NCBI GenBank assembly: GCA_963422645.2
Contig: CAXXVO010000007.1
Location: 96,001 to 160,000 of the forward strand
Origin: Alphaproteobacteria bacterium
Lineage (GTDB): Bacteria; Pseudomonadota; Alphaproteobacteria; UBA828
Length of the DNA: 64,000 nt
Direction: 5' to 3'
Shown: one piece after another, positions 2,778-45,771 of the stretch
How the letters are laid out: each line of letters opens with the position of its first letter
How positions within the stretch are numbered: position 1 is the stretch's first letter
Notes under the pieces: generated by a model
Seen by the model: only the letters and a program-made list of their open reading frames with translations
What the model was told of the DNA's origin: nothing
Database searches by the model: none
Program-made: the position numbers and the translations under genes

Positions 2778-2990
2778 ATCTGTATATCGAAAGATGCTAC
2801 AGGGCACTCTACCGTGATGTCGCTGCCGGAAAATCCACCAAGCTTTTCGACATGGGCTATAGCTCTTATGCCAACTCTGTCGATTCCATATGGAGAATCA
2901 TAAGATCTTGGTCAGTCTGTTTGTTCTACGGACCTCTTTTGGCTGTACTGGGTGCTCTCTTTTTCGTCATTGTCAAAACAGGAGGATGTC

Positions 2991-3525
2991 ATGACACGTA
3001 GGGTCTTCTATAGCTTTCATTACAGTGCTGATGCTTGGCGCACTGCGCAGGTGAGGAACATCGGCGCAATCGAAGGCGATCAGCAATCATACGACAACGG
3101 GTGGGAGAAGACTAGGAGAAATAGCAGAGATCAAACGCTGGATCGCAGGCCAGATGAAAAGACGAACCTGTACGATTGTTCTTGTCGGTTCTTGTACGGC
3201 AGACCGGAAATGGATCAACTACGAAATCGTGAAATCCTGGGATGATGAAATGGGAGTTGCCGGGATACACATCCATGGCCTGAAGGATCAATATGGTCAG
3301 ACCTCTGCCAAGGGGAGTAACCCGTTTGATCGCATCCCGCTTCAAGACTTTGGAGAAGAGTTTTCAACCGCTGTGAAATGCTACGATCCGCAAGGTGGAA
3401 CCAGTGAAGAAAGATATCGTTGGATCGAGTGCAACCTTGAATCGGTCATCGAGAAGGCAATTGAAATCAGGAAAGAATATTGTCGGACCGACCACCTTGT
3501 TGATTCGATCGTCAATCAGGAATAG
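2991..3525 (+). pseudogene. TIR-domain protein (MTH538/DUF1863, ThsB-like), frameshifted near 3113
   Basis: GGAGG RBS. MTRRVFYSFHY..DAWR..QVRNIG continues in another frame as EIKRWIAGQMKRRTCTIVLVG...RKWINYEI...GIHIHGLKD...SNPF. Confidence 0.85.
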
Positions 3526-3608
3526 ACATTAACTTGCGCGAGAAAGCGGTGCCGATGTGGAACGACCTCCGGGGGTGAACTAGTCTCACAGACGGAGGAG
3601 TGCTTTCG

Positions 3609-4442
3609 TCAATTCGAGATCAGCAGCTCTCCGGCTCTCCGCGTGGCCTTTGCGTTGGCGGAGTATCGGGTTTCCACGGCTTCGATCCGGAAGCCCCTGA
3701 ACGTCTCCCGCGTCTCGGGCGTGTCATTCAACGACAGGATGAACCGCCCTTTCAGCCTGGCGAGCATCGCGGCCATGCGCCCAAAATCCTCCCGTGAGAA
3801 CAGTCCCTTGCCGTAGTCGTTTTCGTGCCCGAGGTATGGCGGATCGATGTAGAACAGCACGAACTCCCGGTCGTATCGCTCGAGGAACACGGCCCAGTCG
3901 AGGCGGTCGATATGGACGTGTGCGAGGCGCCTGTGGGCGGCCTCGATCAGCCTGCGCATGCGGGCCGACGAGAACCTTGCCCTGTGGTGGGGCGTGACCA
4001 TGCCGGTCTGTCCGGGGGTGGCGTCGGTTGCGGGTTTTCCGCCGAAGGCGTTGGTCTGGAGGTATGCGAACCTGGCGGCCCTCTGGATGTCGGTGAGGGT
4101 ATCGGGGTTGACGGCGCAGAGGCGTCGGAACTCGGCTCTTGAGGATGAGGCCCAGTCGAACTGCCGGGCCAACTCCTGCGGATGTTCCCTCACCATCCTG
4201 AAGAGGTTGACGACGTCTCCGTTGATGTCGTTGACGATCTCCGCTCTCGGTCGCTGGCACCGTCTGAGGAACACGCCGCCCATGCCGAGGAAGGGTTCGG
4301 CGTAGCATTTGTGCGGGATCGCCTCGATGCGCTCGATGATGCGGGCGGCGAGGTATTTCTTGCCGCCGAACCAGGGCGCGAGCGGCGTTGCGGGCTCGAC
4401 GGCCTCGAGGGCTTCCGGTGCGCGGCCCGAACGACTCGACAC
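3609..4442 (-). CDS. D12-class N6-adenine DNA methyltransferase (Dam-like), phage-encoded
   Basis: WFGGKKYL, EPFLGMGGV (SAM motif), NDING, DPPY catalytic motif, ELLISN end. Confidence 0.92.
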   Translation of the reverse strand: MSSRSGRAPEALEAVEPATPLAPWFGGKKYLAARIIERIEAIPHKCYAEPFLGMGGVFLRRCQRPRAEIVNDINGDVVNLFRMVREHPQELARQFDWASSSRAEFRRLCAVNPDTLTDIQRAARFAYLQTNAFGGKPATDATPGQTGMVTPHHRARFSSARMRRLIEAAHRRLAHVHIDRLDWAVFLERYDREFVLFYIDPPYLGHENDYGKGLFSREDFGRMAAMLARLKGRFILSLNDTPETRETFRGFRIEAVETRYSANAKATRRAGELLISN

Positions 4443-4448
4443 GGGGGT

Positions 4449-4570
4449 CGCCTCCCACGATCATGCTCCCGCCCCGTGCGGGGTGGCGGGACGGCCACAG
4501 CTGGGCCGGTTGCGGTCGTGGGAGGCGTTATCTCCCGGTTCGGGATGTTGTGAGCATCCCGTCCCCCGCC
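4449..4570 (-). promoter_or_regulatory. Structured 5' leader sequestering the methylase Shine-Dalgarno
   Basis: On the minus-strand mRNA, CGCCTCCCACGA (4527-4516) is perfectly complementary to TCGTGGGAGGCG (4460-4449), which contains GGAGG. Further hairpins lie inside and upstream. Confidence 0.55.
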
Positions 4571-4681
4571 CCGGCCCCCCGGATACCCGGAACAAGTCCG
4601 GGGGCAGGCTCTTCCGGACGGCCTTCGGGCCGTCCGGGGCGTGGGTTCGAGACGGATTCCAGCACATTTTGCGGCTTTCGT

Positions 4682-4703
4682 TCAGGGGACCATGGTCCCC
4701 TGA
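4682..4703. promoter_or_regulatory. Perfect 22-bp palindrome upstream of the head operon (candidate activator/operator site)
   Basis: TCAGGGGACCATGGTCCCCTGA ends 34 bp before ATG 4738. Confidence 0.45.
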
Positions 4704-4737
4704 CGCGGTTTCCGATTGTGTGCCTATATTCGGCCCC

Positions 4738-5967
4738 ATGAGCGCATTGGACGGCTGGATCGACGTTTGCCGGACGGGGACCTGGACCGACCTGTCGGGG
4801 CGGGAGGTCCTGCTTGGCGAGGACGATCTCGAGCGTGTCGCTGCGGCCTACGGTTCTGCGGACCCTGCGCCCGTTGTTGTGGGCCATCCGGAGACGGACG
4901 CGCCGGCCTGGGGCTGGGTTGACGGCCTGCGGCAGGTGGGCGACCGGCTTCAGGCGAAGCTGCGCGATATCGCGCCGGCGTTCCGGGAGGCTGTCGAGGA
5001 GGGGCGCTACGCCATGCGCTCGGTCGCTCTCAACGGCGACACGCTGGTTCACCTCGGCTTTCTGGGTGGTCGGGCGCCTGCGGTCGACGGCCTTGCGCCG
5101 ACGCGGTTCTCGGGTTCTGCGGACCGGACGATCCTTCTGGCGGCGTCGGACCTGGCGGACTCGGAGCGCTGGGCGTGGGGGGCGGTACGGCGGACGCTCA
5201 GGCGCCTGCGCGACTGGGTAATCGAGCGCGACGGCGTGGAGAAGGCCGATGCGCTGATCCCGGAATGGGATATCGAGGCGATCGGCGAGCACATGGATGC
5301 GTCCGATACGCCGGCGACGCTCGCCGGCAATGCGGGCGCGGCGGCGGCCCGCGAGGCCGTCAGGCGGATGTCCGATACCGTCAACCGGATGTTGGATACC
5401 TACGGCGACACCGGCGGCGGCGCGGACTCTCACGACACCGGCACCATCGACGACGACACGGAGGAGGGCGCGATGCCCGACGAGGACAAGGAGGCCAGGC
5501 TGGCCGCGGAGCGTGAAGAGCTGGCTGCCGCCCGCGCGGCGCTTGCGGCGGAGAGGGCGGCGCACGAGTCGGCGGTCGCTGCGGCGGAGCGCCTTGCGGC
5601 GGCGGATGAGGAGATCGAGGGCCATGTGAAGGCGGGGCGTGTGCTTCCGGCGGAGGGGCCGCGGCTGTCGGCCCTTCTGGCGTCGCTGCCGGACGACGAC
5701 GCCGGCGAGACGCGGCTGGCGTTCGCGGCGCCCGGCGCGGGCGAGGTCCGGGAGACCCCGCGAGCGGCGCTGGCCGGGTTCCTGGGCGGTCTGCCGAAGC
5801 GTGTGGACTACACCGAGCGTGCGCCGGACGGGGACGCTGCGGCGGAGGAGGCGCGCGATCCGCACGCGCTTGCGTCCCGGGCTCGGGCGCTGATGGCGGC
5901 GGATGCGACGGGGAGCATGACCATCGCCCAGGCGGTGCGCCGGGCGGCGGCGGAGAACGCGGGATGA
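4738..5967 (+). CDS. Mu-like prohead protease/scaffold (gpI-like)
   Basis: WIDVCRTGTWTD, APVVVGHP..DAPAWGWV, HLGFLGGRAPAVDGL; Ala/Glu-rich scaffold C-terminus; lies directly before the capsid genes. Confidence 0.85.
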   Translation: MSALDGWIDVCRTGTWTDLSGREVLLGEDDLERVAAAYGSADPAPVVVGHPETDAPAWGWVDGLRQVGDRLQAKLRDIAPAFREAVEEGRYAMRSVALNGDTLVHLGFLGGRAPAVDGLAPTRFSGSADRTILLAASDLADSERWAWGAVRRTLRRLRDWVIERDGVEKADALIPEWDIEAIGEHMDASDTPATLAGNAGAAAAREAVRRMSDTVNRMLDTYGDTGGGADSHDTGTIDDDTEEGAMPDEDKEARLAAEREELAAARAALAAERAAHESAVAAAERLAAADEEIEGHVKAGRVLPAEGPRLSALLASLPDDDAGETRLAFAAPGAGEVRETPRAALAGFLGGLPKRVDYTERAPDGDAAAEEARDPHALASRARALMAADATGSMTIAQAVRRAAAENAG

Positions 5968-7918: not shown

Positions 7919-8142
7919 GCAAGGGCGAGCTGCGCGTCGGGATCGGGTTCAACCCGTCGGGCGACGGGACGGTTGCGGCGATCAAGCGGCAGTCGGCGGA
8001 CCTCATTGACCTGATCGAGACCATCGATCCGGCCTCCGACGGGATCGCCGGCGAAGTGGCCCGCCTCAAGGCTCTGGCGCAGACCGATATCGAGAGCGCC
8101 GCCATGTGGGCGGTGAAGGCCGCGACGAAGCGGGCGGCGTGA
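7915..8142 (+). CDS. Small helical-hairpin protein, Acb2/Tad1-like (candidate immune-signal sponge)
   Basis: 75 aa; FNPSG...IKRQSADLIDLIE...RLKALAQTDIESAAMWAVKAAT resembles the Acb2/Tad1 C-terminal helix (recognised by eye). Confidence 0.55.
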   Translation: MSKGELRVGIGFNPSGDGTVAAIKRQSADLIDLIETIDPASDGIAGEVARLKALAQTDIESAAMWAVKAATKRAA

Positions 8143-9301: not shown

Positions 9302-9400
9302 TGAGCGTGCGCCCAGCATTTGATGGTGCGGTTTTCGGATTATTTGATGTTCGTGATGCGGCGCTTGGTTGATCTGCGAGAGCGGTGAGTGGCCTGGCTT

Positions 9401-10270
9401 TCATCGAGACCGCAGGAGCATCTCGTTCCAGTCCTTGGCGTGTCGTGGGCGCAACCTTTTCACCCTTGGATCGTTGAGCACGAGATGCTCGGCGGCAGTG
9501 TCGCCGGCGCTGTCTGCGTCGTAGGCACAGACGATGCGACGTGGCTTCCACTCCTTGATCCAGGGCGGGACCGAGCTGGCGATGCCGGCGGTTGAGGCGA
9601 CGACGGCGCCGTTCTCGCGCGTCCCCTCGACGCGCAGGCTTCGTGCAGAGATGGCGTCGACGGCGCTCTCGGTGAGGATGACGAGGGCGGGCTGGTTTCG
9701 GTCGCAGTGGAGCCAGAAGCCGCCACGCGCCTTGCGCGATCCCGGGGCCATGCCCCTGAAGCGTTTTGTTCCGGGCTGCGGCGCGGTGCCGAGGATCTCG
9801 GCGCCGGTCGTGTGCCCGCTGGCGTTTCGGCAGATGAAGACGGCGTTGATCCTGTCATCGGCGTAGAGGAGGCCTCGGCCGTGGCAGGCTTCGAGCACGT
9901 CGGTGCCGATAGCGCGTTGGCGGATGAGGGCGTCCCGGACCCTGGGCCAGGCGCGGGGACTGGGCCTTGGCAGCCGCAGGCGTCGCGGGGCGGCTGGGAT
10001 GGTGGTGATCTCCCTCCGCCCCTCATGGCTTCCGAGGAAGCGGAGGGCTTCCGGGAAGCGGCATCCCGTCGCATGGATGACGAGGTCGATGGCGCCACCC
10101 CCTCCCGTGCCGCGCAGGTGATCGAAGAACTTCTCGCCGTTGATGCTGATGACCGAGCCCCCGCGCTTGAAGCGCGCCCGGTCGGTCGGGTCTCTGCGGT
10201 AGCCGAGGGCGGCGGCGACCCGGTCGAGGGGGATGTTGCGGCAGGTGGCCAGGGGATCGCCGCCGCTCAT
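9401..10270 (-). CDS. DUF3991/Toprim primase-like protein (copy)
   Basis: Same as 43809-44678 except one residue; ILTESAVDAIS and CAYDADSAG Toprim motifs. Confidence 0.8.
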   Translation of the reverse strand: MSGGDPLATCRNIPLDRVAAALGYRRDPTDRARFKRGGSVISINGEKFFDHLRGTGGGGAIDLVIHATGCRFPEALRFLGSHEGRREITTIPAAPRRLRLPRPSPRAWPRVRDALIRQRAIGTDVLEACHGRGLLYADDRINAVFICRNASGHTTGAEILGTAPQPGTKRFRGMAPGSRKARGGFWLHCDRNQPALVILTESAVDAISARSLRVEGTRENGAVVASTAGIASSVPPWIKEWKPRRIVCAYDADSAGDTAAEHLVLNDPRVKRLRPRHAKDWNEMLLRSR

Positions 10271-10372
10271 TGCCGGGTCCCGGCGAAGGTCTGCTTGGAA
10301 GGGAGGCTGACGGCGTTCCCGTTCCTGTACCCTTCAACGCTTAAGAGTTCCGGGAACGGGAACGGGAACGCC

Positions 10373-11371
10373 TCATCCCGCACTTCCGTTGATGGCGGCA
10401 GGGGATTGCGGCTCCCGGTGCGCCTCGGCGGCTGCGAGGCGATAGCCACCCCTGGGCGCCCGTTCGATGCGCCCCTCCCTGGTGAGGCTCTCGATGGCGG
10501 CAACGACGGTGGCGTTGCGGGCAGCGGCGCGTGAGCGGATCTGGGCTTTCGAGAGCGGCTTTTCGGCCTGCTCGATCGCCTTGAAGACGCGCTGCTCGAC
10601 GGTGGCGGGCTCGTGCCTGTCTTCATCTGCCGCGTCCTGGTGCAGACGGAAGGCCGGCCCATGTCCGCCGTCGACGAGTTCCAGCTCGATGTCGTTGAGG
10701 CCCCGGGCGTCGCGCTGCTCGACCGTCATGACGATCTTCTTGTCGCGCCGGCGCAGGTACAGATTTGAGTCACCCCAAGCGTGCAGCTCGCTGCTCCCGC
10801 GCAGGGCCTGCCCCGGCCGGGTGCCGCCGCTCTTGCGGGCGTGGTGGACGAGGAGGACGGCGGTTTCGAAGCGGCGCTGCAGTTCGCGCAGGAAGCCGAG
10901 GATGGGGGCGATCTCTGCGACGGCGTTCTCGTCGACGCTGTGCAGGCGGACCAGGGGATCGAGGATCAGGAGGCGCGGTTCGATGCGCTCCACGGTCTGC
11001 TGCAGGCGTTGACGGTCGCCGGGCCGGTCGAGACGCAGGGTGGGCACGTCGATGACGGCGATGTCGAGTTCGTCGAAGGGGGTGGCGGCGGCGCGGGCGA
11101 TCCCCTGCAGACGCTTGCGCACCCTGTGGCCGGCGTCCTCGGCGGCGAAGAGCAGCACGGTGCCGCTTGCGCTGGGGCGGTAGTGGCGCAGGCATGGGAC
11201 GCCGGTGGCCACGGCGACGGCGAGATCGAGCGCGAGCAGGGATTTGCCGCACTTGGGCTCGCCGCCGACGATGCCCACGGCCTGCTCGGCCCACAGCGTG
11301 TCCACCATCCACTGTTGCGCCCGGGGGCGATCCTCGAGCTGCATCGGCGCCCGTGTCGGGAAGCCCTTCAC
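10373..11371 (-). CDS. AAA_25/RepA-like helicase ATPase (copy)
   Basis: GEPKCGKS, LLILDPL, LVHHARK, LRGSS. Confidence 0.8.
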   Translation of the reverse strand: MKGFPTRAPMQLEDRPRAQQWMVDTLWAEQAVGIVGGEPKCGKSLLALDLAVAVATGVPCLRHYRPSASGTVLLFAAEDAGHRVRKRLQGIARAAATPFDELDIAVIDVPTLRLDRPGDRQRLQQTVERIEPRLLILDPLVRLHSVDENAVAEIAPILGFLRELQRRFETAVLLVHHARKSGGTRPGQALRGSSELHAWGDSNLYLRRRDKKIVMTVEQRDARGLNDIELELVDGGHGPAFRLHQDAADEDRHEPATVEQRVFKAIEQAEKPLSKAQIRSRAAARNATVVAAIESLTREGRIERAPRGGYRLAAAEAHREPQSPAAINGSAG

Positions 11372-11668
11372 CGCCGTGCCCTCTTCGGCTTGGCGGGCTC
11401 GCCCAGGATCTCCATGAAGAGCTTCTCGTCGAGAACCTCGCGGTTCTTCTCGGCGCCGGCGGCGAGCAGCATGTCGCCCATGACGGTAAGCGCCCTGGGG
11501 TTGCCGCCGGCGTGGGTGACCAGGGTGTCCTTGAGCTCTGCGCTCATGAGGCCCGGATTGCCGGCCTGCTCGACCAGATGGTCGAGCAGGGCCGCGAGGT
11601 CGCCGGCGTCTGCCTGGGTCATGACCAGGCGCTGGCGCAGGCGCGAGGCGATGGGCTGCAAGTCGGGC
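11368..11668 (-). pseudogene. 3' fragment of ExeA-type ATPase
   Basis: Matches the last ~100 codons of 41878-42711; the 5' part is replaced by the Mu end. Confidence 0.9.
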
Positions 11669-11669
11669 C

Positions 11670-11742
11670 ATTCGCAAAGACTTCCGGCCGCGATTCGCAA
11701 AGACTTTCGGCCGCGATTCGCAAAGACTTTCGGCCGGCTACA
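11670..11742 (+). repeat. Mu-like right end: three 23-bp-period transposase-binding repeats plus terminal CA
   Basis: ATTCGCAAAGACTT(C/T)CGGCCG at 11670, 11693 and 11716, then GCTACA. Confidence 0.85.
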
Positions 11743-34447: not shown

Positions 34448-34520
<73 letters not shown>

Positions 34521-39364: not shown

Positions 39365-39738
39365 CCGCCGGAGCAGCCCACCTACTCCTGCTCTACCCGG
39401 CCTTGTGGCGGCGCGCCCCTCTCACCATCTCAGGTTGAGAGGACAATAGAAGGGCACGGCAGATGACGGCACGGCGGCAATCACAAGAGATGCCTGGACG
39501 GCGTCCGCCGACTGCCGTGTTCGTTCAGGCTATCCCTGGCGGGCCCGCGCCCACACAAAGCCGAGCAAATGGCGAAAACAGGGGACATTGAGCGCGCGCG
39601 GTCTTTCAGCGGGGATCGGGGCCTGATCCGCTCGGATTTGTTGAGGTTTTGGGGCGGGTGCCCCTCGGCGAACTTGCAAGAAGTTCGCCGGGGGGCTTTG
39701 TCTCGTGGTGACGGTCACAATCGCCAGAGACGGCCCCA

Positions 39739-40356
39739 ATGTCGCACAACATTTTCCGCCACTCCATGCTTTGCAACGCCCTGGTCTGGGCCTGGCTGCG
39801 CGAGGTCGATGAGGCCGAGGCGGCGCGCTGCCGCGAGGCGGGCTGCCGACACTGCCCCGGCAAGCTGCACAGCGCGACGTATCCGCGCAAGCCGTACGGT
39901 CTGGCAGCCGAGTTGAGGGAAGAGGGCACGCGGCGGTTCAGCTTCTGCTGCGCGGATTGCCGCCTGCGAGCGACCCCACCATCGGTACGATTCTTCGGGC
40001 GCCGCTTTTATCTGGGCGCCCTGTTCGTTCTGTTGAGTGCACTGGTTCTGAGAGGCGGGGTGCGGTTGCAGACGATCAAGCGGAAGTGGGGGGTCTCGGT
40101 CGCCACACTGCGCCGCTGGCGGAAGTGGTGGCTGGAGGCGTTCCCGGCGACGGAGCCCTGGGGAGCGAAGCGTGGCGAACTGGTGATGCCACCCGAGGAG
40201 GTGCCGCTGCTCTTCGTGCTGCGGCAGATGCGGGGCGGACGCTTCGGTGAGCGTCTGTTCCTGAGCCTGATCTGGTTCAAGCCGTGGACGGGCTATTGCG
40301 GGCTCGGCGATGGCTCGGCGCCGCCCGCAGAAAGTGTTCCTGTCACGCCCGGATAG
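39739..40356 (+). CDS. Transposon accessory Zn-ribbon/HTH protein
   Basis: CRHC...CCADC and GVSVATLRRWRKWW HTH-like motif; first gene of the element. Confidence 0.7.
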   Translation: MSHNIFRHSMLCNALVWAWLREVDEAEAARCREAGCRHCPGKLHSATYPRKPYGLAAELREEGTRRFSFCCADCRLRATPPSVRFFGRRFYLGALFVLLSALVLRGGVRLQTIKRKWGVSVATLRRWRKWWLEAFPATEPWGAKRGELVMPPEEVPLLFVLRQMRGGRFGERLFLSLIWFKPWTGYCGLGDGSAPPAESVPVTPG

Positions 40357-40405
40357 GGCGTTCTACATGGGCATCTCTCCGATGCGGCGAGGGAGGGATG
40401 CCGGA

Positions 40406-41881
40406 ATGGACAAGGACGACGCAGGCGCCAGGCGCGAGAAGTGGGCCCGGCTGCGCTTTGCGGTGGTGGGGCCGCTTCTGGCTTCACCGCCGCCTGCAGG
40501 CCAGCTGGGGGCCGAGTTCGAGCGTCTGTCGCAGCGCGACTGGGAGCACCCGTCGGGCAAGGGGCCGGTGCGCTTTGCGGCCTCGACGATCGAGCGCTGG
40601 TACTACCGGGCGCGGGCAGAGGAGCAGGACCCGGTCAAGGCGCTGCGCCGGAAGCCTCGGACCGACGTCGGCCGCGAGCGGTCCATGTCGGCGGGGCTGA
40701 TCGCGGCGCTGCGCGAGCAGTACCGGGTCCATCCCTCGTGGGCGGCGCAGCTCCACTACGAGACCCTCAAGGCTCATGTTGCGACCCATCCCGAGCTCGG
40801 CCCGATGCCGTCCTACGCGACGCTGACGCGGGCGATGCGCAATCGCGGCCTGGTGCGCGAGCGCCCCAGGAAGTGGCACGAGGGTGAGGACAAGCCGGCG
40901 GTCGAAGCCCGCGAGGTCCTTAGCTACGAGGTGTCTCGCAGTCACGCGCTGTGGCACGGGGACTTCCACCACGGCAAGCGCCGCGTGCTGACGGCGTCGG
41001 GCGAATGGCAGACGCCCATCCTGCTCGGCTTCCTCGACGACCACTCCAGGCTTGGCTGCCACCTGCAGTGGTACCTGGAGGAGACCGCCGAGGTCTTCGT
41101 CCACGGGCTCTGTCAGGCCTTCATGAAGAGGGACTTGCCCAGGTCCCTGCTGACCGACAACGGCGGGCCGATGACGGCGGGCGAGGTCGAGGAGGGCTTG
41201 CACCGCCTCGGCATCGTGGGGGCCACGACACTCGCTTACAGCCCCCATCAAAATGGAAAAATCGAGTCGTTCTGGGGCACGGTCGAGGGCCGCCTGATGG
41301 CTCAGCTCGAAGGCGTCGACGCGCTCACCCTGAAGATGCTCAACGACGCCACCATAGCCTGGCTGGAGCAGGACTACCATCGGCGGGTGCACCGCGAGCT
41401 CGGCATGACGCCGCATGAACGCCTCGCCGGGAGCGTCAAGGCATCGAGGCCCTGCCCCGCCTCGGACGAGCTCAAGGCGGCCTTCCGCATCGCCAGGAAG
41501 CGCACGCTCAGGCGCTCGGACGGCACCGTCTCGGTCGAGGGCATCCGCTACCAGGTGCCACAGCCGTGGCGCCACCTGAGGACGCTCTGGGTCCGCTATG
41601 CGCGCTGGGACCTCAGCGGCGTCGATCTGGTGGAAGGCCGAAGCGGCGAGCGGCTGTGCACGCTGTACCCCCTCGACAAGCGCGGCAACGCCGATGGCGT
41701 CCGCCGTCCTGCGAGACCCGGCAGCGACCATGGCGGCGCCAGCGCGGGCGTCGGCGAACTTCCGCCGCTGCTCAAGGGCGTGCTCGACGCCCAGGCCGCA
41801 ACAGGCCTGCCGCCGGCCTGGGTACCCCATAACAAGACGCCCGGTCCGGGCGAGGACGACGATCAGGGAGATCCGTCATGA
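40406..41881 (+). CDS. DDE (rve) transposase with Mu-transposase-like C-terminal domain
   Basis: LWHGDFH, LLTDNG and GKIESFW (D-D-E); DGTVSVEGIRYQV C-terminal barrel. Confidence 0.9.
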   Translation: MDKDDAGARREKWARLRFAVVGPLLASPPPAGQLGAEFERLSQRDWEHPSGKGPVRFAASTIERWYYRARAEEQDPVKALRRKPRTDVGRERSMSAGLIAALREQYRVHPSWAAQLHYETLKAHVATHPELGPMPSYATLTRAMRNRGLVRERPRKWHEGEDKPAVEAREVLSYEVSRSHALWHGDFHHGKRRVLTASGEWQTPILLGFLDDHSRLGCHLQWYLEETAEVFVHGLCQAFMKRDLPRSLLTDNGGPMTAGEVEEGLHRLGIVGATTLAYSPHQNGKIESFWGTVEGRLMAQLEGVDALTLKMLNDATIAWLEQDYHRRVHRELGMTPHERLAGSVKASRPCPASDELKAAFRIARKRTLRRSDGTVSVEGIRYQVPQPWRHLRTLWVRYARWDLSGVDLVEGRSGERLCTLYPLDKRGNADGVRRPARPGSDHGGASAGVGELPPLLKGVLDAQAATGLPPAWVPHNKTPGPGEDDDQGDPS

Positions 41882-42711
41882 ACCGCGAGCTGCTCACCTT
41901 CTACGGGCTCAAATGGAACCCCTTCGCCACCGACCTTCCGGTCGACAGCCTCATGGTGAGCCCCGCCGTCGACAGCTTCTGCCTCAGAATCGAGCATCAT
42001 CTTGTGCGCCAGGGCGGCTTCGCGTTGATCGCCGGCGAGCCCGGCACCGGAAAGAGCGTGGCGTTGCGCGTGCTCGCCGACCGCCTCGGCCGCTCGGACG
42101 GGCTCAGGGTCTGTGCCATCACCCACCCCTCTTCCAGGCTGTCCGACTTCTACCGCGAGATCGGCGGGATGTTCGGCGTCGACCTGATGTACAACAACCG
42201 CTGGGCCAGCTTCAAAAACCTGCGCGAGCGATGGCTCACCCATGTCGACGACACCCGCATGCGGCCCGTGGTGCTCATCGACGAGGCCCAGGAGCTGCTG
42301 CCCTCGGTGATCTCCGAGATCCGCCTGCTGGCGTCCACCGACTTCGACTCGCGCGCCATCCTCTCGGTCGTCTTCGCCGGCGACAGCCGCCTGATCGACA
42401 GGCTCCGCCAGCCCGACTTGCAGCCCATCGCCTCGCGCCTGCGCCAGCGCCTGGTCATGACCCAGGCAGACGCCGGCGACCTCGCGGCCCTGCTCGACCA
42501 TCTGGTCGAGCAGGCCGGCAATCCGGGCCTCATGAGCGCAGAGCTCAAGGACACCCTGGTCACCCACGCCGGCGGCAACCCCAGGGCGCTTACCGTCATG
42601 GGCGACATGCTGCTCGCCGCCGGCGCCGAGAAGAACCGCGAGGTTCTCGACGAGAAGCTCTTCATGGAGATCCTGGGCGAGCCCGCCAAGCCGAAGAGGG
42701 CACGGCGGTGA
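41878..42711 (+). CDS. ExeA-type AAA+ ATPase (TnsC/MuB/IstB-like helper)
   Basis: FYGLKWNPF, GEPGTGKS, VVLIDEAQ, GNPR. Confidence 0.9.
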   Translation: MNRELLTFYGLKWNPFATDLPVDSLMVSPAVDSFCLRIEHHLVRQGGFALIAGEPGTGKSVALRVLADRLGRSDGLRVCAITHPSSRLSDFYREIGGMFGVDLMYNNRWASFKNLRERWLTHVDDTRMRPVVLIDEAQELLPSVISEIRLLASTDFDSRAILSVVFAGDSRLIDRLRQPDLQPIASRLRQRLVMTQADAGDLAALLDHLVEQAGNPGLMSAELKDTLVTHAGGNPRALTVMGDMLLAAGAEKNREVLDEKLFMEILGEPAKPKRARR

Positions 42712-43706
42712 AGGGCTTCCCGACACGGGCGCCGATGCAGCTCGAGGATCGCCCCCGGGCGCAACAGTGGATGGTGGACACGCTGTGGGCCGAGCAGGCC
42801 GTGGGCATCGTCGGCGGCGAGCCCAAGTGCGGCAAATCCCTGCTCGCGCTCGATCTCGCCGTCGCCGTGGCCACCGGCGTCCCATGCCTGCGCCACTACC
42901 GCCCCAGCGCAAGCGGCACCGTGCTGCTCTTCGCCGCCGAGGACGCCGGCCACAGGGTGCGCAAGCGTCTGCAGGGGATCGCCCGCGCCGCCGCCACCCC
43001 CTTCGACGAACTCGACATCGCCGTCATCGACGTGCCCACCCTGCGTCTCGACCAGCGCATCGACCGTCAGCGCCTGCAGGAGACCGTGGAGCGCATCGAA
43101 CCGCGCCTCCTGATCCTCGATCCCCTGGTCCGCCTGCACAGCGTCGACGAGAACGCCGTCGCAGAGATCGCCCCCATCCTCGGCTTCCTGCGCGAACTGC
43201 AGCGCCGCTTCGAAACCGCCGTCCTCCTCGTCCACCACGCCCGCAAGAGCGGCGGCACCCGGCCGGGGCAGGCCCTGCGCGGGAGCAGCGAGCTGCACGC
43301 TTGGGGTGACTCAAATCTGTACCTGCGCCGGCGCGACAAGAAGATCGTCATGACGGTCGAGCAGCGCGACGCCCGGGGCCTCAACGACATCGAGCTGGAA
43401 CTCGTCGACGGCGGACATGGGCCGGCCTTCCGTCTGCACCAGGACGCGGCAGATGAAGACAGGCACGAGCCCGCCACCGTCGAGCAGCGCGTCTTCAAGG
43501 CGATCGAGCAGGCCGAAAAGCCGCTCTCGAAAGCCCAGATCCGCTCACGCGCCGCTGCCCGCAACGCCACCGTCGTTGCCGCCATCGAGAGCCTCACCAG
43601 GGAGGGGCGCATCGAACGGGCGCCCAGGGGTGGCTATCGCCTCGCAGCCGCCGAGGCGCACCGGGAGCCGCAATCCCCTGCCGCCATCAACGGAAGTGCG
43701 GGATGA
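42708..43706 (+). CDS. AAA_25 RecA-fold ATPase, RepA/SF4-helicase-like
   Basis: GEPKCGKS, LFAAED, LLILDPL, LVHHARK, LRGSS; GTGA coupling to exeA. Confidence 0.8.
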   Translation: MKGFPTRAPMQLEDRPRAQQWMVDTLWAEQAVGIVGGEPKCGKSLLALDLAVAVATGVPCLRHYRPSASGTVLLFAAEDAGHRVRKRLQGIARAAATPFDELDIAVIDVPTLRLDQRIDRQRLQETVERIEPRLLILDPLVRLHSVDENAVAEIAPILGFLRELQRRFETAVLLVHHARKSGGTRPGQALRGSSELHAWGDSNLYLRRRDKKIVMTVEQRDARGLNDIELELVDGGHGPAFRLHQDAADEDRHEPATVEQRVFKAIEQAEKPLSKAQIRSRAAARNATVVAAIESLTREGRIERAPRGGYRLAAAEAHREPQSPAAINGSAG

Positions 43707-43767
43707 GGCGTTCCCGTTCCCGTTCCCGGAACTCTTAAGCGTTGAAGGGTACAGGAACGGGAACGCC
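43707..43767. repeat. Inverted GTTCCC/GGGAAC repeat between helicase and primase (candidate origin)
   Basis: GGCGTTCCCGTTCC (43707-43720) and GGAACGGGAACGCC (43754-43767) flank a less GC-rich core; mirrored at 10312-10372. Confidence 0.55.
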
Positions 43768-43808
43768 GTCAGCCTCCCTTCCAAGCAGACCTTCGCCGGG
43801 ACCCGGCA

Positions 43809-44678
43809 ATGAGCGGCGGCGATCCCCTGGCCACCTGCCGCAACATCCCCCTCGACCGGGTCGCCGCCGCCCTCGGCTACCGCAGAGACCCGACCGACCG
43901 GGCGCGCTTCAAGCGCGGGGGCTCGGTCATCAGCATCAACGGCGAGAAGTTCTTCGATCACCTGCGCGGCACGGGAGGGGGTGGCGCCATCGACCTCGTC
44001 ATCCATGCGACGGGATGCCGCTTCCCGGAAGCCCTCCGCTTCCTCGGAAGCCATGAGGGGCGGAGGGAGATCACCACCATCCCAGCCGCCCCGCGACGCC
44101 TGCGGCTGCCAAGGCCCAGTCCCCGCGCCTGGCCCAGGGTCCGGGACGCCCTCATCCGCCAACGCGCTATCGGCACCGACGTGCTCGAAGCCTGCCACGG
44201 CCGAGGCCTCCTCTACGCCGATGACAGGATCAACGCCGTCTTCATCTGCCGAAACGCCAGCGGGCACACGACCGGCGCCGAGATCCTCGGCACCGCGCCG
44301 CAGCCCGGAACAAAACGCTTCAGGGGCATGGCCCCGGGATCGCGCAAGGCGCGTGGCGGCTTCTGGCTCCACTGCGACCGAAACCAGCCCGCCCTCGTCA
44401 TCCTCACCGAGAGCGCCGTCGACGCCATCTCTGCACGAAGCCTGCGCGTCGAGGGGACGCGCGAGAACGGCGCCGTCGTCGCCTCAACCGCCGGCATCGC
44501 CAGCTCGGTCCCGCCCTGGACCAAGGAGTGGAAGCCACGTCGCATCGTCTGTGCCTACGACGCAGACAGCGCCGGCGACACTGCCGCCGAGCATCTCGTG
44601 CTCAACGATCCAAGGGTGAAAAGGTTGCGCCCACGACACGCCAAGGACTGGAACGAGATGCTCCTGCGGTCTCGATGA
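43809..44678 (+). CDS. DUF3991/Toprim primase-like protein
   Basis: GGGAIDLV.H...F.EAL N-terminus, ILTESAVDAIS, CAYDADSAG, KDWNE.L. Confidence 0.8.
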   Translation: MSGGDPLATCRNIPLDRVAAALGYRRDPTDRARFKRGGSVISINGEKFFDHLRGTGGGGAIDLVIHATGCRFPEALRFLGSHEGRREITTIPAAPRRLRLPRPSPRAWPRVRDALIRQRAIGTDVLEACHGRGLLYADDRINAVFICRNASGHTTGAEILGTAPQPGTKRFRGMAPGSRKARGGFWLHCDRNQPALVILTESAVDAISARSLRVEGTRENGAVVASTAGIASSVPPWTKEWKPRRIVCAYDADSAGDTAAEHLVLNDPRVKRLRPRHAKDWNEMLLRSR

Positions 44679-45771
44679 AAGCCAGGCCACTCACCGCTCT
44701 CGCAGATCAACCAAGCGCCGCATCACGAACATCAAATAATCCGAAAACCGCACCATCAAATGCTGGGCGCACGCTCAACATAGAAAACACGGAAATCCGT
44801 GAGCACAAGAAACCCGGTGAAGCAAAGCCAATCTGGCCCCGCGACCGGCGAAAAGAGAAAAGCGTTAGATCACTCCCCATAATAATTTTCTATAGCCTCG
44901 AATACGTTTTCTGCTGGTTCTATTACCTGTTCGGCCACGTCGCTAGCTTCCGATTCCTCCTTCAATTCTCCGCCGTCATGCTCTTCGCCATGGGCGTCTA
45001 CGGTGTGACCATAGACATCGAGAAGCGACAGATCGATCGCGGTGTTCGGGAAGCGACGCTGTTCGCGATGATCGCGCGCACCCACGCGCTACCGGACGGC
45101 AAGGGAGCGGGAGCGCTCAAACCCAGCGTGGAGGCACTGGCGCGCGACGGCGTCGCCCTGGAGGAGATCAACCTCAGCGGGGCGAACCTTCGGGGCGCGA
45201 AACTTGCTGGCGCCAATTTCAGGCGGGCCGATCTGAGCGGCGCAATCTTGGTCGAGGCGGACCTCAGGGGGGCCGATCTACGCGGCGCGAATCTCAGCGG
45301 GGCGGTCTTCATTCGAGCGAATCTGACGGACGCCGATCTCTGCGAGGCCGACCTCAGCGAGGCCGACCTCGTCGGTGCCGTTTTCGAGGAAGCCTACATG
45401 GAAAAGGTCAATCTGGAGGGGGCCGAGCTGCTCGTCTCCAACTTCTCGAACGCGCACTTGGCAGGCGCGATCGTGACCTCGGCCAATGGCGCCTACTCGA
45501 ACTTTGCCGGCGCCGATCTCTCCAATGCCAACTTCGGCGACACCGAGCTTCAGGGGGCATTGTTCGACGGTGCAAACATTGGCGGTGCCCGGCTTAGTCA
45601 GTCCTACGACCTTTCGAACACGCAGATCGAAAAGGCATGCGCCCCGTCGGATGCTCCTCCGGTCCTGCCGGAACACCTGGAATGGACAGACAGACGCTGC
45701 TGAAGGGAATTGCGATCCGACCGAGAGACCACTTCGCCTGCGGGCGAGCCCTGGAGTGAAGGAGAGCAACC

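What the first reader, a model, noticed from the sequence alone, without database searches (positions are those of the whole stretch)
39589..44777. Compact transposon that encodes its own helicase and primase (candidate self-replicating transposon)
Seen: precise boundaries (TG...CA, 10/11-bp terminal IR, 4-bp ACAT TSD whose removal restores the target ORF). Five co-directional genes: Zn/HTH protein, DDE transposase, ExeA-type ATPase, RepA-like AAA_25 helicase and DUF3991/Toprim primase. Transposase-ATPase-helicase are linked by overlapping start/stop codons. There is no resolvase, TniQ, Cas, conjugation or resistance cargo. A second copy with the same right end shows the replication genes move as part of the element. 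Established: transposase + AAA ATPase pairs (IS21, Mu, Tn7, Tn552) rely on host replication proteins. Inference: this family brings its own primosome-like module, either to replicate a strand-transfer intermediate or to amplify an excised circle. I know of no described IS family with this layout, but could not search.
Basis: partly seen in the sequence, partly recalled or inferred. Interest (0 to 1): 0.88.

Follow-up and report, generated by a model that had tools for sequence, protein, structure and literature searches.

The report
Multicopy transposon carrying helicase and primase
This is a real, recently active 5.2-kb bacterial jumping gene whose cut-and-join core belongs to the known Tn6049 group, but which also carries its own DNA-unwinding enzyme and, in some relatives, a primer-making enzyme, an arrangement I could not find described and whose role in copying the element is still untested.

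Summary
Window 39589-44777 is a 5,189-bp transposon with TG...CA ends, a 10/11 terminal inverted repeat and an ACAT duplication. It has five co-directional genes. Removing it restores a 313-aa pentapeptide-repeat gene, and one public run holds the empty site. The genome carries 8 uninterrupted and 4 IS-interrupted complete copies, plus about 30 fragments.

The claim that no described family has this layout is only partly right. The first three genes and the end architecture match Tn6049 of Cupriavidus metallidurans (41-50% identity), which has no helicase or primase.

The RepA-like helicase is integral to a large undescribed lineage:
- It follows the ATPase in 33 of 35 related loci.
- It lies inside duplication-defined ends in other genomes.
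- Its dN/dS matches the transposase's.
- It recurs on two other distantly related Mu-type backbones.

The DnaG-type primase is optional. Active 4.4-kb relatives lack it, while an IS21-like element in this genome carries a homologue.

The helicase gene ends in inverted hexamer repeats that covary with its DNA-binding domain.

Best reading (about 0.5): an element-encoded primosome supports replicative transposition. No mechanism was tested.

The parts
39585..39588 (.). Left copy of the 4-bp target-site duplication (ACAT)
   Evidence: The empty-site contig in run X3 shares these 4 letters.
39589..39599 (+). Left terminal inverted repeat, TGAGCGCGCGC
   Evidence: 10 of 11 positions match the reverse complement of the right end. 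The same TGAGCG terminus occurs in related elements.
39632..39646 (+). Left subterminal repeat TCGGATTTGTTGAGG, a candidate transposase-binding site (inferred)
   Evidence: the word TCGGATT is shared with the right end, and TTGATG-like repeats occur in both ends.
39739..40356 (+). orf1, 205 aa: Cys-rich (CxxC...CCxxC) plus HTH protein; homologue of the first gene of Tn6049
   Evidence: 41% identity, E 2e-33, to the Tn6049 gene; invariant C36, C39, C70, C71 and C74. HTH_23, 0.0018. DUF6431-like clusters (a lead only).
40310..41881 (+). DDE transposase (523-aa ORF; likely start at 40406, giving 491 aa), Mu/Tn6049-type
   Evidence: phrog_310 transposase, 6e-35; 47.8% identity to the Tn6049 transposase. 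D218, D283 and E319 conserved in 18 of 18 transposases.
41878..42711 (+). AAA+ ATPase (AAA_22; ExeA/GspA/TniB/MuB-like), ATGA overlap with the transposase gene
   Evidence: AAA_22, 6e-19; phrog_296 'DNA transposition protein', 6e-19; 50% identity to Tn6049 gspA.
42708..43706 (+). RepA-like RecA-fold helicase (AAA_25) with a C-terminal winged-helix domain; GTG start in a GTGA overlap with the ATPase gene
   Evidence: AAA_25, 3e-36. RSF1010 RepA (1g8y), E 8e-9; phage primase/helicase and DnaB-like PHROGs. Walker A, Walker B and other motifs invariant; relatives carry GntR, MarR or IclR winged-helix hits.
43707..43767 (.). Inverted repeat or hairpin built of three GTTCCC hexamers facing GGGAAC, directly after the helicase stop codon. 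Candidate binding or loading site of the helicase's winged-helix domain (inferred).
   Evidence: self-inverted match. DNA fold -31.9 kcal/mol, z -3.9; present in 19 of 19 elements; the hexamer type covaries with a winged-helix residue.
43809..44678 (+). DnaG/T7 gp4-type primase (DUF3991 + Toprim)
   Evidence: AF2 model with pLDDT 85.6; best folds are Aquifex DnaG (3.9e-8), the T7 gp4 primase fragment and Twinkle. Toprim Glu and DxD conserved.
44729..44761 (-). Right subterminal repeats (ATTTGATGG and TCGGATTATTTGATGT on the minus strand). The motif CACCATCA is conserved in relatives, and CCATCA is seen near the right end of Tn6049.
44767..44777 (-). Right terminal inverted repeat, GCGCACGCTCA
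44778..44781 (.). Right copy of the target-site duplication (ACAT)
44782..45703 (+). Downstream part of the interrupted pentapeptide-repeat gene. Its first 6 codons and two bases of the seventh lie at 39569-39588.
9302..11668 (-). Second, 5'-truncated copy (element positions 2823-5189, 99.7% identity): end of the ATPase gene, helicase, primase and right end

Best explanation
WHAT IT IS (shown). The element is an active member of the Tn6049 lineage of Mu-type transposons. These combine a DDE transposase, an AAA+ partner ATPase and a small Zn/HTH protein, and they have TG...CA ends and 4-5-bp target duplications. This lineage has added a replication module.

The module consists of:
- a RepA-like hexameric-type helicase fused to a winged-helix domain;
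- inverted GTTNCC hexamer repeats at the 3' end of the helicase gene;
- in a subset, including this element, a DnaG-type primase.

HOW IT LIKELY WORKS (inferred).
1. The transposase, with no TnsA-like second nuclease and no resolvase, nicks only the 3' ends and joins them to a target held by the ATPase, as in Mu.
2. This leaves a forked strand-transfer intermediate that must be replicated.
3. The element's own helicase, positioned through its winged-helix domain on the hexamer repeats, unwinds the element.
4. The element's or the host's primase primes the lagging strand.
5. Copying therefore does not depend on the host's PriA/DnaC/DnaB restart machinery.

SHOWN VERSUS INFERRED. Shown: mobility, family membership of the core, fold and family of the helicase and primase, their conservation and selection, and their recurrence on several transposon backbones. 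Inferred: every step of the mechanism. The 0.5 confidence is for this mechanistic reading. That the element is a real Tn6049-lineage transposon with an integral helicase module I put at about 0.9.
For: MOBILITY
- The genome has 8 uninterrupted complete copies and 4 complete copies interrupted by other IS, at 99.8-100% identity.
- The window site is polymorphic: run X3 holds the empty site.
- Duplications of 4-6 bp flank 19 of 21 relatives with determinable ends in other genomes.

CORE
- orf1, transposase and ATPase are 41%, 48% and 50% identical to those of Tn6049.
- The transposase and ATPase match the phage transposase and 'DNA transposition protein' PHROGs.
- The DDE triad and the Mu-type C-terminal barrel motif are conserved in 18 of 18 transposases.

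HELICASE IS INTEGRAL
- It lies directly after the ATPase gene in 33 of 35 loci found through it.
- The start/stop overlap with the ATPase gene is kept in groups A to C.
- Its dN/dS is 0.36, the same as the transposase's.
- Its ATPase motifs are invariant.
- No variable cargo occupies its place.

RECURRENCE ON OTHER BACKBONES
- The same helicase (65-74% identity) sits behind a transposase and ATPase that are only 26-30% identical to ours (rve + Mu-transpos_C, TGTTGT ends).
- A 45%-identical helicase sits behind a third such pair.
- In the helicase tree, L053 (second backbone, with primase) nests among first-backbone helicases. The module has therefore been exchanged.
- A primase 49% identical to ours is the third gene of an IS21-like IstA-IstB element in this genome and in a metagenome contig.

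IDENTITY OF THE REPLICATION PROTEINS
- Helicase: RSF1010 RepA, E 8e-9.
- Primase: DnaG, T7 gp4 and Twinkle folds.

CIS SITE
- Inverted hexamer repeats lie at the helicase 3' end in 19 of 19 elements.
- The middle base of the hexamer covaries with the residue after invariant R285 in the winged helix. N/H goes with C in 11 of 11, P/T with A in 7 of 7, and A with T in 1 of 1.

ESTABLISHED KNOWLEDGE (recalled, from no call)
- Mu replication after strand transfer needs the host PriA primosome.
- Tn7 without TnsA transposes replicatively.
- RSF1010's own RepA, RepB' and RepC make it independent of host initiation proteins.
Against: - No experiment or read-level evidence bears on the mechanism.
- Tn6049 itself and other relatives transpose without a helicase or primase. 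Cupriavidus metallidurans CH34 has 12 copies (PMC2864759). The module is therefore not needed by the core machinery.
- The primase is absent from very successful four-gene elements.
- Nearly all insertions in other genomes are simple insertions with intact duplications. There is no resolvase, so if transposition is replicative, cointegrates between replicons must be resolved by the host.
- A specific internal binding site for the helicase fits an origin-type function (rival 1) at least as well as loading at transposon-end forks.
- The covariation between hexamer and winged helix involves sites about 100 bp apart. They are inherited together, so it may reflect linkage alone.
- Cross-phylum spread rests largely on short contigs binned into MAGs.
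- dN/dS values are Nei-Gojobori estimates in very GC-rich genes and are only comparable between the five genes.
Confidence: 0.5

Rival explanations
1. Transposon-plasmid hybrid. The helicase with its winged-helix domain is an initiator-helicase, and the hexamer inverted repeat is an origin. The module replicates an excised circular copy, or fires in situ, to raise copy number or aid transfer. It does not replicate a strand-transfer intermediate.
For: - A cognate-looking internal site with iteron-like hexamers is conserved in 19 of 19 elements and covaries with the winged helix.
- The closest solved relative of the helicase is a plasmid helicase, RSF1010 RepA.
- The nearest non-transposon relatives of the primase are plasmid MobV-Toprim fusions, one on a 2.9-kb plasmid.
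- The transposase scores best against the IS481 model. IS481/IS3-type elements are thought to use circular intermediates (recalled).
Against: - No head-to-tail junction exists in the assembly.
- No 'goes back' joint appears in the contigs of three runs. This is weak evidence, because contigs drop rare forms.
- The element-to-flank depth ratio (about 25 in X1, about 52 in X3) is of the order of the 19-27 assembled copies. The tool warns that depth is no copy number.
- The helicase was not found on plasmids: only 2 distant hits among 72,556 records.
- It was not found in viral contigs.
- The hairpin is weak in the second backbone type (z -0.2 to -1.4).
Confidence: 0.2
2. The AAA_25 protein is not a replicative helicase here. 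It acts as a transposition accessory factor: a DNA-binding ATPase that chooses targets, remodels or disassembles the transpososome (the role ClpX plays for Mu), or regulates expression through its winged-helix domain. It stands in for the missing TniQ/TnsD-type component.
For: - It has a fixed position and start/stop overlap directly after the TniB/MuB-like ATPase on three backbones.
- No TniQ or other selector was detected.
- Active elements do without a primase of their own.
- A sequence-specific winged helix is typical of regulators.
Against: - Family and motif evidence points to DnaB/RepA-type helicases.
- Repeated co-occurrence with a DnaG-type primase on two backbones is what a primosome predicts.
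- The repeats lie downstream of the gene, not at a promoter.
- Duplication sequences show no common target motif.
Confidence: 0.15
3. Helicase and primase are passenger genes picked up from a plasmid, phage or defence island, with no role in the element's own movement.
For: - Tn6049 proper lacks them.
- Primase presence is patchy on the helicase tree.
- Modules are mosaic: ATPase identity to ours ranges from 63% to 97% among elements whose transposases are 61-91% identical.
Against: - Nothing else ever occupies this slot in the loci examined.
- Selection on these genes equals that on the transposase.
- Overlapping stop/start codons are kept.
- The module was recruited independently by at least three distantly related ATPase-assisted DDE backbones, and the primase also by an IS21-like element.
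- PADLOC gives only short local matches.
Confidence: 0.08

Closest known systems
Tn6049 (Cupriavidus metallidurans CH34; also on Pseudomonas aeruginosa plasmid pHS87a)
   Same: - Same first three genes in the same order. These are the Cys-rich/HTH protein (41% identity), the 'IS481-family' DDE transposase (47.8% over 95% of its length) and the GspA/ExeA-like ATPase (50%).
- Short imperfect TG...CA inverted repeats (12 bp against 11 bp) and a 4-bp duplication.
- A CCATCA subterminal motif at the right end.
- High copy number in its host.
(PMC2864759 and PMC4739549, passages read.)
   Different: - Tn6049 is 3.5 kb and has a 71-aa ORF after the ATPase gene. That ORF shows no similarity to the helicase.
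- It has no helicase, no primase and no hexamer inverted repeat of this kind.
Phage Mu A/B and the Tn552, Tn5053 and Tn7 (TnsB/TnsC) group
   Same: - DDE rve core with a Mu-type C-terminal barrel motif.
- An AAA+ partner: the transposase and ATPase match the phage transposase and 'DNA transposition protein' PHROGs.
- TG/CA termini, asymmetric subterminal repeats and about 5-bp duplications.
   Different: - No TnsA, TniQ/TnsD or resolvase was found, and there are no phage genes.
- Mu and its relatives rely on host primosome proteins for replication (recalled). This lineage encodes a helicase and sometimes a primase.
RSF1010 (IncQ) RepA helicase with RepB' primase and RepC initiator
   Same: - RepA is the closest solved relative of the helicase (1g8y, E 8e-9).
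- The logic is the same: self-supplied helicase plus primase gives independence from host initiation proteins (recalled).
- Short repeats lie next to the genes.
   Different: - Here the helicase carries its own winged-helix domain and there is no RepC.
- The primase has the DnaG/Toprim fold, not the RepB' type.
- The genes sit inside a transposon and were not found on plasmids.
T7 gp4 and Twinkle primase-helicases
   Same: A Toprim primase paired with a RecA-fold hexameric-type helicase. The primase model matches the gp4 and Twinkle primase domains, and the helicase matches phage primase/helicase PHROGs.
   Different: The two activities are separate genes in the reverse order. The primase has no Cys4 zinc-binding domain evident in its sequence. 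The helicase has an added winged helix.
Self-synthesizing transposons (casposons, Polintons/Mavericks) and IEE (the PrimPol-type IS-excision enhancer)
   Same: These are mobile elements, or factors acting on DDE insertion sequences, that bring replication enzymes to the transposition process. Listings and abstracts were seen (PMC4046053, 10.1101/2023.06.07.543989).
   Different: - Casposons and Polintons carry a DNA polymerase, and a Cas1 or retroviral-type integrase. No polymerase is present here.
- IEE is encoded outside the IS and is a PrimPol, not a DnaG-type primase.
IS21 (IstA/IstB)
   Same: A two-gene DDE + AAA+ design. An IS21-like element in this same genome carries a homologue of the primase as its third gene.
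   Different: The transposase here scores 37 bits against a 160-bit IS21 cutoff. The ATPase is AAA_22/TniB-like, not IstB.

Membership tests
Tn6049 family | Homologues of all three Tn6049 core genes (small Cys-rich/HTH protein, DDE transposase, GspA/ExeA-like ATPase) in the same order and orientation | tested here: met
   41% (E 2e-33), 47.8% (95% coverage) and 50% (E 3e-94) identity. The gene order is identical.
Tn6049 family | Short imperfect terminal inverted repeats starting TG and ending CA, with a 4-bp target duplication | tested here: met
   an 11-bp inverted repeat matching at 10 of 11 positions, and 4-5-bp duplications. PMC4739549 (passage read): Tn6049 has a 12-bp imperfect inverted repeat and a 4-bp direct repeat.
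Tn6049 family | About 3.5 kb, with only a small ORF after the ATPase gene | tested here: not met
   The element is 5,189 bp. A 332-aa helicase and a 289-aa primase follow the ATPase gene. The Tn6049 71-aa ORF is unrelated to the helicase.
Mu / TnsB / TniA-type transposons with an AAA+ partner | DDE rve catalytic core followed by a Mu-type C-terminal beta-barrel | tested here: met
   - D218, D283 and E319 are conserved in 18 of 18 transposases. The VRYARWDL motif aligns with the LRYDP motif of second-backbone transposases.
- Those second-backbone transposases carry Pfam Mu-transpos_C.
- phrog_310, 6e-35.
- Caveat: Pfam rve and Mu-transpos_C fall below their gathering scores, or are undetected, on this protein itself.
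Mu / TnsB / TniA-type transposons with an AAA+ partner | Adjacent MuB/TniB/TnsC-like ATPase | tested here: met
   AAA_22, 6e-19; phrog_296 'DNA transposition protein', 6e-19.
Tn7-like, Tn5053 and Tn552 subgroups | TnsA endonuclease, a TniQ/TnsD selector, or a serine resolvase | tested here: not met
   No such domain was found in any of the five proteins with Pfam, NCBIfam, PHROGs or PADLOC.
IS481 family | Transposase reaching the NCBIfam IS481 cutoff, in a single-gene IS of about 1 kb | tested here: not met
   117.3 bits against a 224 cutoff. The element has five genes. PGAP nevertheless labels the Tn6049 transposase 'IS481 family'.
IS21 family | IstA transposase and IstB ATPase | tested here: not met
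   the IS21 model scores 37.2 bits against a 160 cutoff. One search shows no IstB_IS21 hit.
DnaB/RepA-type replicative helicases | RecA-fold core with Walker A, Walker B and the other helicase motifs, and similarity to a solved hexameric helicase | tested here: met
   AAA_25, 3e-36. RepA 1g8y, 8e-9. GGEPKCGKS, FAAEDAGH, LDPLVRLH, VDEN and HHARK are invariant or nearly so. Hexamer formation and unwinding are not testable with these tools.
DnaG-type primases | Toprim fold with the catalytic Glu and DxD, plus the N-terminal subdomain of the RNA-polymerase core | tested here: met
   - the model (pLDDT 85.6) matches the Aquifex, E. coli, B. subtilis and M. tuberculosis DnaG cores and the T7 gp4 primase (E 4e-8 to 1e-4).
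- E201 and D253 are nearly invariant and D251 is invariant.
- Primer synthesis was not tested.
- No Cys4 zinc finger is seen in the sequence.
Self-synthesizing transposons (casposons, Polintons) | Element-encoded DNA polymerase | tested here: not met
   No polymerase domain was found in the five genes.

The most novel reading that the evidence does not exclude
These are the first prokaryotic DDE transposons that carry their own primosome. The primosome consists of an initiator-type helicase that recognises a cognate hexamer-repeat site inside the element and, optionally, a DnaG-type primase. Replicative transposition, or replication of a transposition intermediate, would then be independent of the host's restart and loading proteins. 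The same solution has been recruited repeatedly by Tn6049-like, Mu-transpos_C-type and IS21-like backbones.
Probability: 0.4. Interest if true: 0.85.

Novelty: new variant of a known kind. Interest (0 to 1): 0.74.

Why it matters
How Mu-type strand-transfer intermediates are handed to a replisome is understood only for phage Mu in E. coli, where host PriA, DnaC and DnaB do the work (recalled). A compact, cargo-free transposon that brings its own helicase, a matching DNA site and sometimes a primase would be a minimal system for studying that hand-over.

It would also give a prokaryotic counterpart to the eukaryotic and archaeal self-synthesizing elements.

It could explain how one element family reaches high copy number in very different hosts.

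The family is large. More than 7,800 helicase clusters at 90% identity passed E 1e-10 in a search that was capped at 8,000 candidates. These proteins are annotated only as 'AAA family ATPase', so transposon and genome annotation currently misses the family.

Tried and rejected
STRUCTURE AND COMPLEX
- Complex prediction of the ATPase alignment with the helicase alignment gave no verdict (score 0.00, controls not run). It is no evidence either way.
- The orf1 AF2 model was too poor to search (pLDDT 55.8). The atlas look-up gave only a DUF6431-like lead.

READS AND RUNS
- No RNA holder was listed.
- Run X21 (raw Hi-C reads) laid 0 reads, so it was no test.
- No circle ('goes back') joint appeared in the contigs of X1, X3 or X6. 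Contigs drop rare forms, so this is weak.
- The element-to-flank depth ratio was considered as a sign of extrachromosomal amplification. I rejected it because the ratio is of the order of the assembled copy number, and the tool says depth is no copy number.

HAIRPIN AND NON-CODING SEGMENT
- RNAalifold on the MAFFT alignment of the hairpin region found no consensus structure, because the arms are out of register. I used per-sequence inverted-repeat searches and shuffles instead.
- Rfam gave no match in four related loci at E <= 1. In the window it found only a tRNA.

NEGATIVE SEARCHES
- Helicase in viral contigs: none.
- Helicase in plasmids: 2 distant hits.
- Helicase in phages: only 26-32% relatives.
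- Primase remnants in the tails of four-gene elements: none.
- I looked by eye at whether copies without duplications in this genome pair up reciprocally. Nothing convincing emerged, and chance matches are expected at 4 bp.

LITERATURE
Eight searches and passages of PMC10293859 gave no description of a helicase- or primase-bearing Tn6049-type, Mu-type or IS21-type transposon. ISfinder and TnCentral could not be queried. Supplements were not seen. Subscription papers, including the original 2009 description of Tn6049, were not available.

Full report
THE OBSERVATION

The element occupies window 39589-44777. It begins TGAGCGCGCGC and ends GCGCACGCTCA, a 10/11 inverted repeat, and it is flanked by ACAT on both sides.

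Removing the element and one ACAT inside a script restores a 313-aa ORF running from 39569 to 45703. With the element present the ORF stops after 115 aa. The downstream part of this ORF is a pentapeptide-repeat protein.

Independent support comes from public data. A contig of run X3 joins 39584 to 44778, skipping 5,193 bases with 4 shared letters. This is the empty site, so the insertion is polymorphic.

- a Cys-rich/HTH protein;
- a DDE transposase (rve; best NCBIfam model IS481, at 117 bits against a 224 cutoff);
- an AAA_22 ATPase;
- an AAA_25 helicase with a GTG start;
- a DUF3991/Toprim protein.

The transposase and ATPase genes overlap as ATGA, and the ATPase and helicase genes as GTGA. 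The start of the transposase that is conserved in relatives corresponds to Met33, at 40406. No resolvase, TniQ, Cas, conjugation, resistance or convincing defence domain is present.

MOBILITY

The second copy in the window (9302-11668, minus strand) is a 5'-truncated copy covering element positions 2823-5189 at 99.7% identity.

The whole assembly has 23 contigs and 5.9 Mb, with 8.5% estimated contamination. It holds the following:
- 8 uninterrupted full-length copies at 99.8-100% identity;
- 4 further complete copies interrupted by other insertion sequences;
- about 30 fragments, giving 19-27 copies at any element position.

Five of the 12 complete copies keep a 4- or 5-bp duplication (ACAT, CCGT, TTCCC, GCAGG, CCTTG). 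Seven do not. In an assembly this rich in repeats I attribute those seven to later rearrangement, but I could not show it.

THE CORE IS A KNOWN FAMILY

A tblastn search of the transposase against plasmids found its best full-length relatives (47.8% identity, 95% coverage) in Cupriavidus metallidurans CH34 and related plasmids. The annotated pMOL30 locus shows four genes:
- a 181-aa 'transposase';
- an 'IS481 family transposase';
- a 277-aa 'AAA family ATPase';
- a 71-aa hypothetical protein.

The first is 41% identical to orf1 (E 2e-33). The ATPase is 50% identical to ours (E 3e-94).

This element is Tn6049. It is 3.5 kb long, has 12 copies in CH34 and carries an ATPase named gspA (PMC2864759, passages read). 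It has 12-bp imperfect TG...CA inverted repeats and a 4-bp direct repeat (PMC4739549, passages read). Its right end also carries the CCATCA subterminal motif seen in our family.

PHROGs place the transposase with phage transposases (6e-35) and the ATPase with the 'DNA transposition protein' family (6e-19). The DDE triad (D218, D283, E319) and a Mu-type C-terminal barrel motif are conserved in 18 of 18 transposases aligned.

The statement that no described family has this layout is therefore only half right. The transposition core is Tn6049-type and Mu-like. What Tn6049 lacks is the helicase and the primase. Its 71-aa ORF shows no similarity to the helicase.

THE HELICASE IS AN INTEGRAL PART OF A LARGE LINEAGE

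A scan of one genome per species, using the helicase as query, returned 35 loci. In 33 of the 35, an AAA_22 ATPase gene lies directly upstream of the helicase gene. In most of them orf1 and the transposase are present as well. The exceptions are L032 and L046.

Three complete genomes carry multicopy four-gene elements made of orf1, transposase, ATPase and helicase:

| Group | Size | Copies |
|---|---|---|
| A | 4,384 bp | 6 full copies |
| B | 4,409 bp | 3 copies |
| C | 4,354 bp | 6 copies |

Copies within a group are 99.9-100% identical. All 15 have TGAGCG...CTCA ends and a 4-6-bp duplication.

The helicase matches RSF1010 RepA (1g8y, E 8e-9) and phage primase/helicase and DnaB-like PHROGs. 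Its Walker A, Walker B and further motifs are invariant across 20 sequences. Its C-terminus is a winged-helix domain, since relatives carry GntR, MarR or IclR hits.

Nei-Gojobori dN/dS medians:

| Gene | Median dN/dS |
|---|---|
| orf1 | 0.45 |
| transposase | 0.36 |
| ATPase | 0.42 |
| helicase | 0.36 |
| primase | 0.41 |

The replication genes are therefore constrained like the transposition genes.

The protein family is large and unnamed:
- 7,806 clusters at 90% identity passed E 1e-10 among 8,000 scored candidates, a capped search. The top 120 are all at least 68% identical.
- 452 clusters at 50% identity passed E 1e-30.
- NCBI calls members 'AAA family ATPase'.

The family is nevertheless rare in an even sample of the class. 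The helicase was found in 1 of 400 other genomes. A Tn6049-like transposase was found in 3 of 400, one of which is an unpublished genome. None of those three had matched the helicase query.

THE PRIMASE IS OPTIONAL BUT GENUINE

The AF2 model (pLDDT 85.6) matches DnaG catalytic cores, the T7 gp4 primase fragment and Twinkle (E 4e-8 to 1e-4). The Toprim Glu and DxD are conserved.

Five-gene elements occur in the following loci:
- L013, L021 and L030;
- L049-L052, with primase 80-88% identical to ours;
- the divergent group D (L034, L040, L042), with primase 47-48% identical to ours.

Duplications enclose helicase and primase in L050 (CTGC), L021 (CCGGT), L040 (CCATC) and L042 (GGTGC). L049 and L051 show none.

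The four-gene elements have no primase remnant. On the helicase tree, elements with and without a primase are interspersed.

Of the 72 loci found with the primase, 64 carry primases of at most 45% identity (one search match table), and no transposon gene was detected there by tblastn. On plasmids the domain is the C-terminal part of MobV fusions.

RECURRENCE ON OTHER BACKBONES

This is the strongest argument for a functional link between the replication genes and transposition.
- Second backbone. Loci L022, L023, L027, L045 and L053 carry a helicase 65-74% identical to ours. It sits behind a transposase and ATPase only 26-30% identical to ours. That transposase has HTH_32, rve and Mu-transpos_C domains, and the ATPase is AAA_22/TniB-like. 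The elements have TGTTGTCTC...GAGACAACA ends, and L023 holds a 4,377-bp copy.
- L053 has this second backbone plus a primase, and its helicase nests among first-backbone helicases.
- Third backbone. A genome from the class sample (G283) has a third transposase-ATPase pair followed by a 45%-identical helicase.
- IS21-like element. Contig C22 of the window's own genome has an IS21-like element made of IstA (HTH_23, rve, Mu-transpos_C_2), IstB (IstB_IS21, 2e-53) and a primase. The primase starts 3 nt after the IstB stop codon and is 49% identical to ours (E 6e-76). The same IstB-primase pair occurs in metagenome contig L054 (80.8% nucleotide identity over 1.76 kb). Similarity ends at a shared terminal motif about 155 bp after the primase gene.

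A CIS ELEMENT

Directly at the helicase stop codon lies an inverted repeat built of GTTNCC hexamers (window 43707-43767).
- Folded as DNA it gives -31.9 kcal/mol, z -3.9.
- A perfect inverted repeat of 8-19 nt of this kind is present in 19 of 19 elements on both backbones.
- Over 101-nt windows the median z is -3.1, and 12 of 19 windows fall below -2. The second backbone is weak.

The middle base of the hexamer differs between elements on both arms together. It tracks the residue after invariant R285 in the winged helix:

| Winged-helix residue | Hexamer | Elements |
|---|---|---|
| N or H | GTTCCC | 11 of 11 |
| P or T | GTTACC | 7 of 7 |
| A | GTTTCC | 1 of 1 |

This fits a cognate protein-site pair. 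However, the two features lie about 100 bp apart and are inherited together, so linkage alone could produce the pattern.

MECHANISM

Shown:
- an active Mu/Tn6049-type transposon;
- a conserved, selected helicase of a replicative type, with a linked DNA site;
- an optional DnaG-type primase;
- repeated recruitment of both genes by ATPase-assisted DDE transposons.

Inferred, by analogy with recalled knowledge (Mu needs the host PriA primosome after strand transfer; Tn7 lacking TnsA becomes replicative; RSF1010 owes its host independence to its own RepA, RepB' and RepC):
- the transposase makes 3'-end strand transfers only;
- the resulting forks are unwound and primed by the element's own proteins.

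I put this at about 0.5. The rivals are plasmid-like or in-situ origin firing (0.2), a non-replicative accessory role for the ATPase-winged-helix protein (0.15) and passive cargo (0.08).

Points against my reading:
- Tn6049 thrives without the module.
- The primase is dispensable.
- Insertions are almost all simple, although there is no resolvase.
- An internal specific site is what an origin would look like.
- Nothing here measures replication.

No circle junction or convincing excess depth was seen, but the data (contigs) could not have shown a rare form.

NOVELTY

Eight full-text searches and the passages read found no description of a helicase- or primase-bearing Tn6049-type, Mu-type or IS21-type transposon. 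ISfinder, TnCentral, supplements and subscription papers were not available.

I rate the finding a new variant of a known kind. It is of high interest because it makes the hand-over from transposition to replication testable in a five-gene element.

Cross-phylum distribution (record titles name Alphaproteobacteria, Gammaproteobacteria, Acidobacteriota, Chloroflexota, Gemmatimonadota, Acidimicrobiales and Binatia) should be read with care. Most of the records outside Alphaproteobacteria are 2-5-kb contigs binned into MAGs.

Noticed in passing
L127 6591-9765 (= G000:C22, about 64590-67764); L054 1452-3229: An IS21-like element whose third gene, starting 3 nt after the IstB stop codon, is a DnaG-type primase 49% identical to the one in the window. 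The IstB-primase pair recurs at 80.8% nucleotide identity in a metagenome contig. Similarity ends at a shared terminal motif about 155 bp after the primase gene. I know of no IS21 member described with a primase (recalled).
   Followed up: partly
L023 768-5144; also L022, L027, L045, L053: A second four-gene transposon type of 4,377 bp with TGTTGTCTC...GAGACAACA ends. Its genes are a 210-aa Cys-containing ORF, a Mu-transpos_C-type transposase, a TniB-like ATPase and the same helicase (65-74% identity). L053 adds the primase.
   Followed up: partly
L048 (G283:C198 1-3441): A third transposase-ATPase pair, 35-36% identical to the second type, followed by a helicase 45% identical to ours. The contig ends inside the helicase gene.
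   Followed up: no
Window 43707-43767 and the helicase 3' ends of 18 related loci: Inverted GTTNCC hexamer repeats whose middle base covaries with the residue after R285 of the helicase's winged helix. N/H goes with C, P/T with A, and A with T. This suggests a cognate binding site, but the two features are tightly linked.
   Followed up: partly
L014 9043-9194, L024 9094-9235, L023 4886-5050, L022, L032, L029, L046; G000:C12:125797-125907: A non-coding segment of about 150 bp with palindromes, 77-94% identical, follows the hexamer repeat in elements that lack a primase (both backbones). It is absent from five-gene elements and from group C. One stray intergenic copy lies elsewhere in the window's genome. 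It has no Rfam match.
   Followed up: partly
Window 11669-11740: Three tandem copies of a unit of about 23 bp (ATTCGCAAAGACTTYCGGCCGCG) directly abut the break point of the truncated second copy. This may be the end of another mobile element.
   Followed up: no
G000, several contigs, e.g. C8:254778, C18:66194-67957, C8:591889-594047: At least three other insertion sequences have inserted into copies of the element. Their ends read TGTTGTTAAGCGTGG, AGTCATGGTCCCCGC...AATCTGTTTCACGGC and CCCAGGTTGGCACTT...AAGTGCCAACTTGGG. The genome looks like one undergoing an IS expansion.
   Followed up: no
G000:C3:162385-166181 and G000:C6:430794-436755: Copies of the element are nested in or abutting other copies. 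In one case a right end joins internal position 3358 in direct orientation. In the other a left end joins position 3608 in inverted orientation. Self-insertion is therefore not prevented.
   Followed up: no
G000: Seven of the 12 complete copies in this genome have no target duplication, whereas 19 of 21 relatives in other genomes do. Rearrangement between copies, intramolecular replicative events and assembly errors were not distinguished.
   Followed up: partly
L054 2-1216: A group II intron reverse transcriptase/maturase lies just upstream of the IstB gene, where IstA would be expected.
   Followed up: no
Window 34448-34520: A tRNA gene is the only Rfam match in the window at gathering score.
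   Followed up: no
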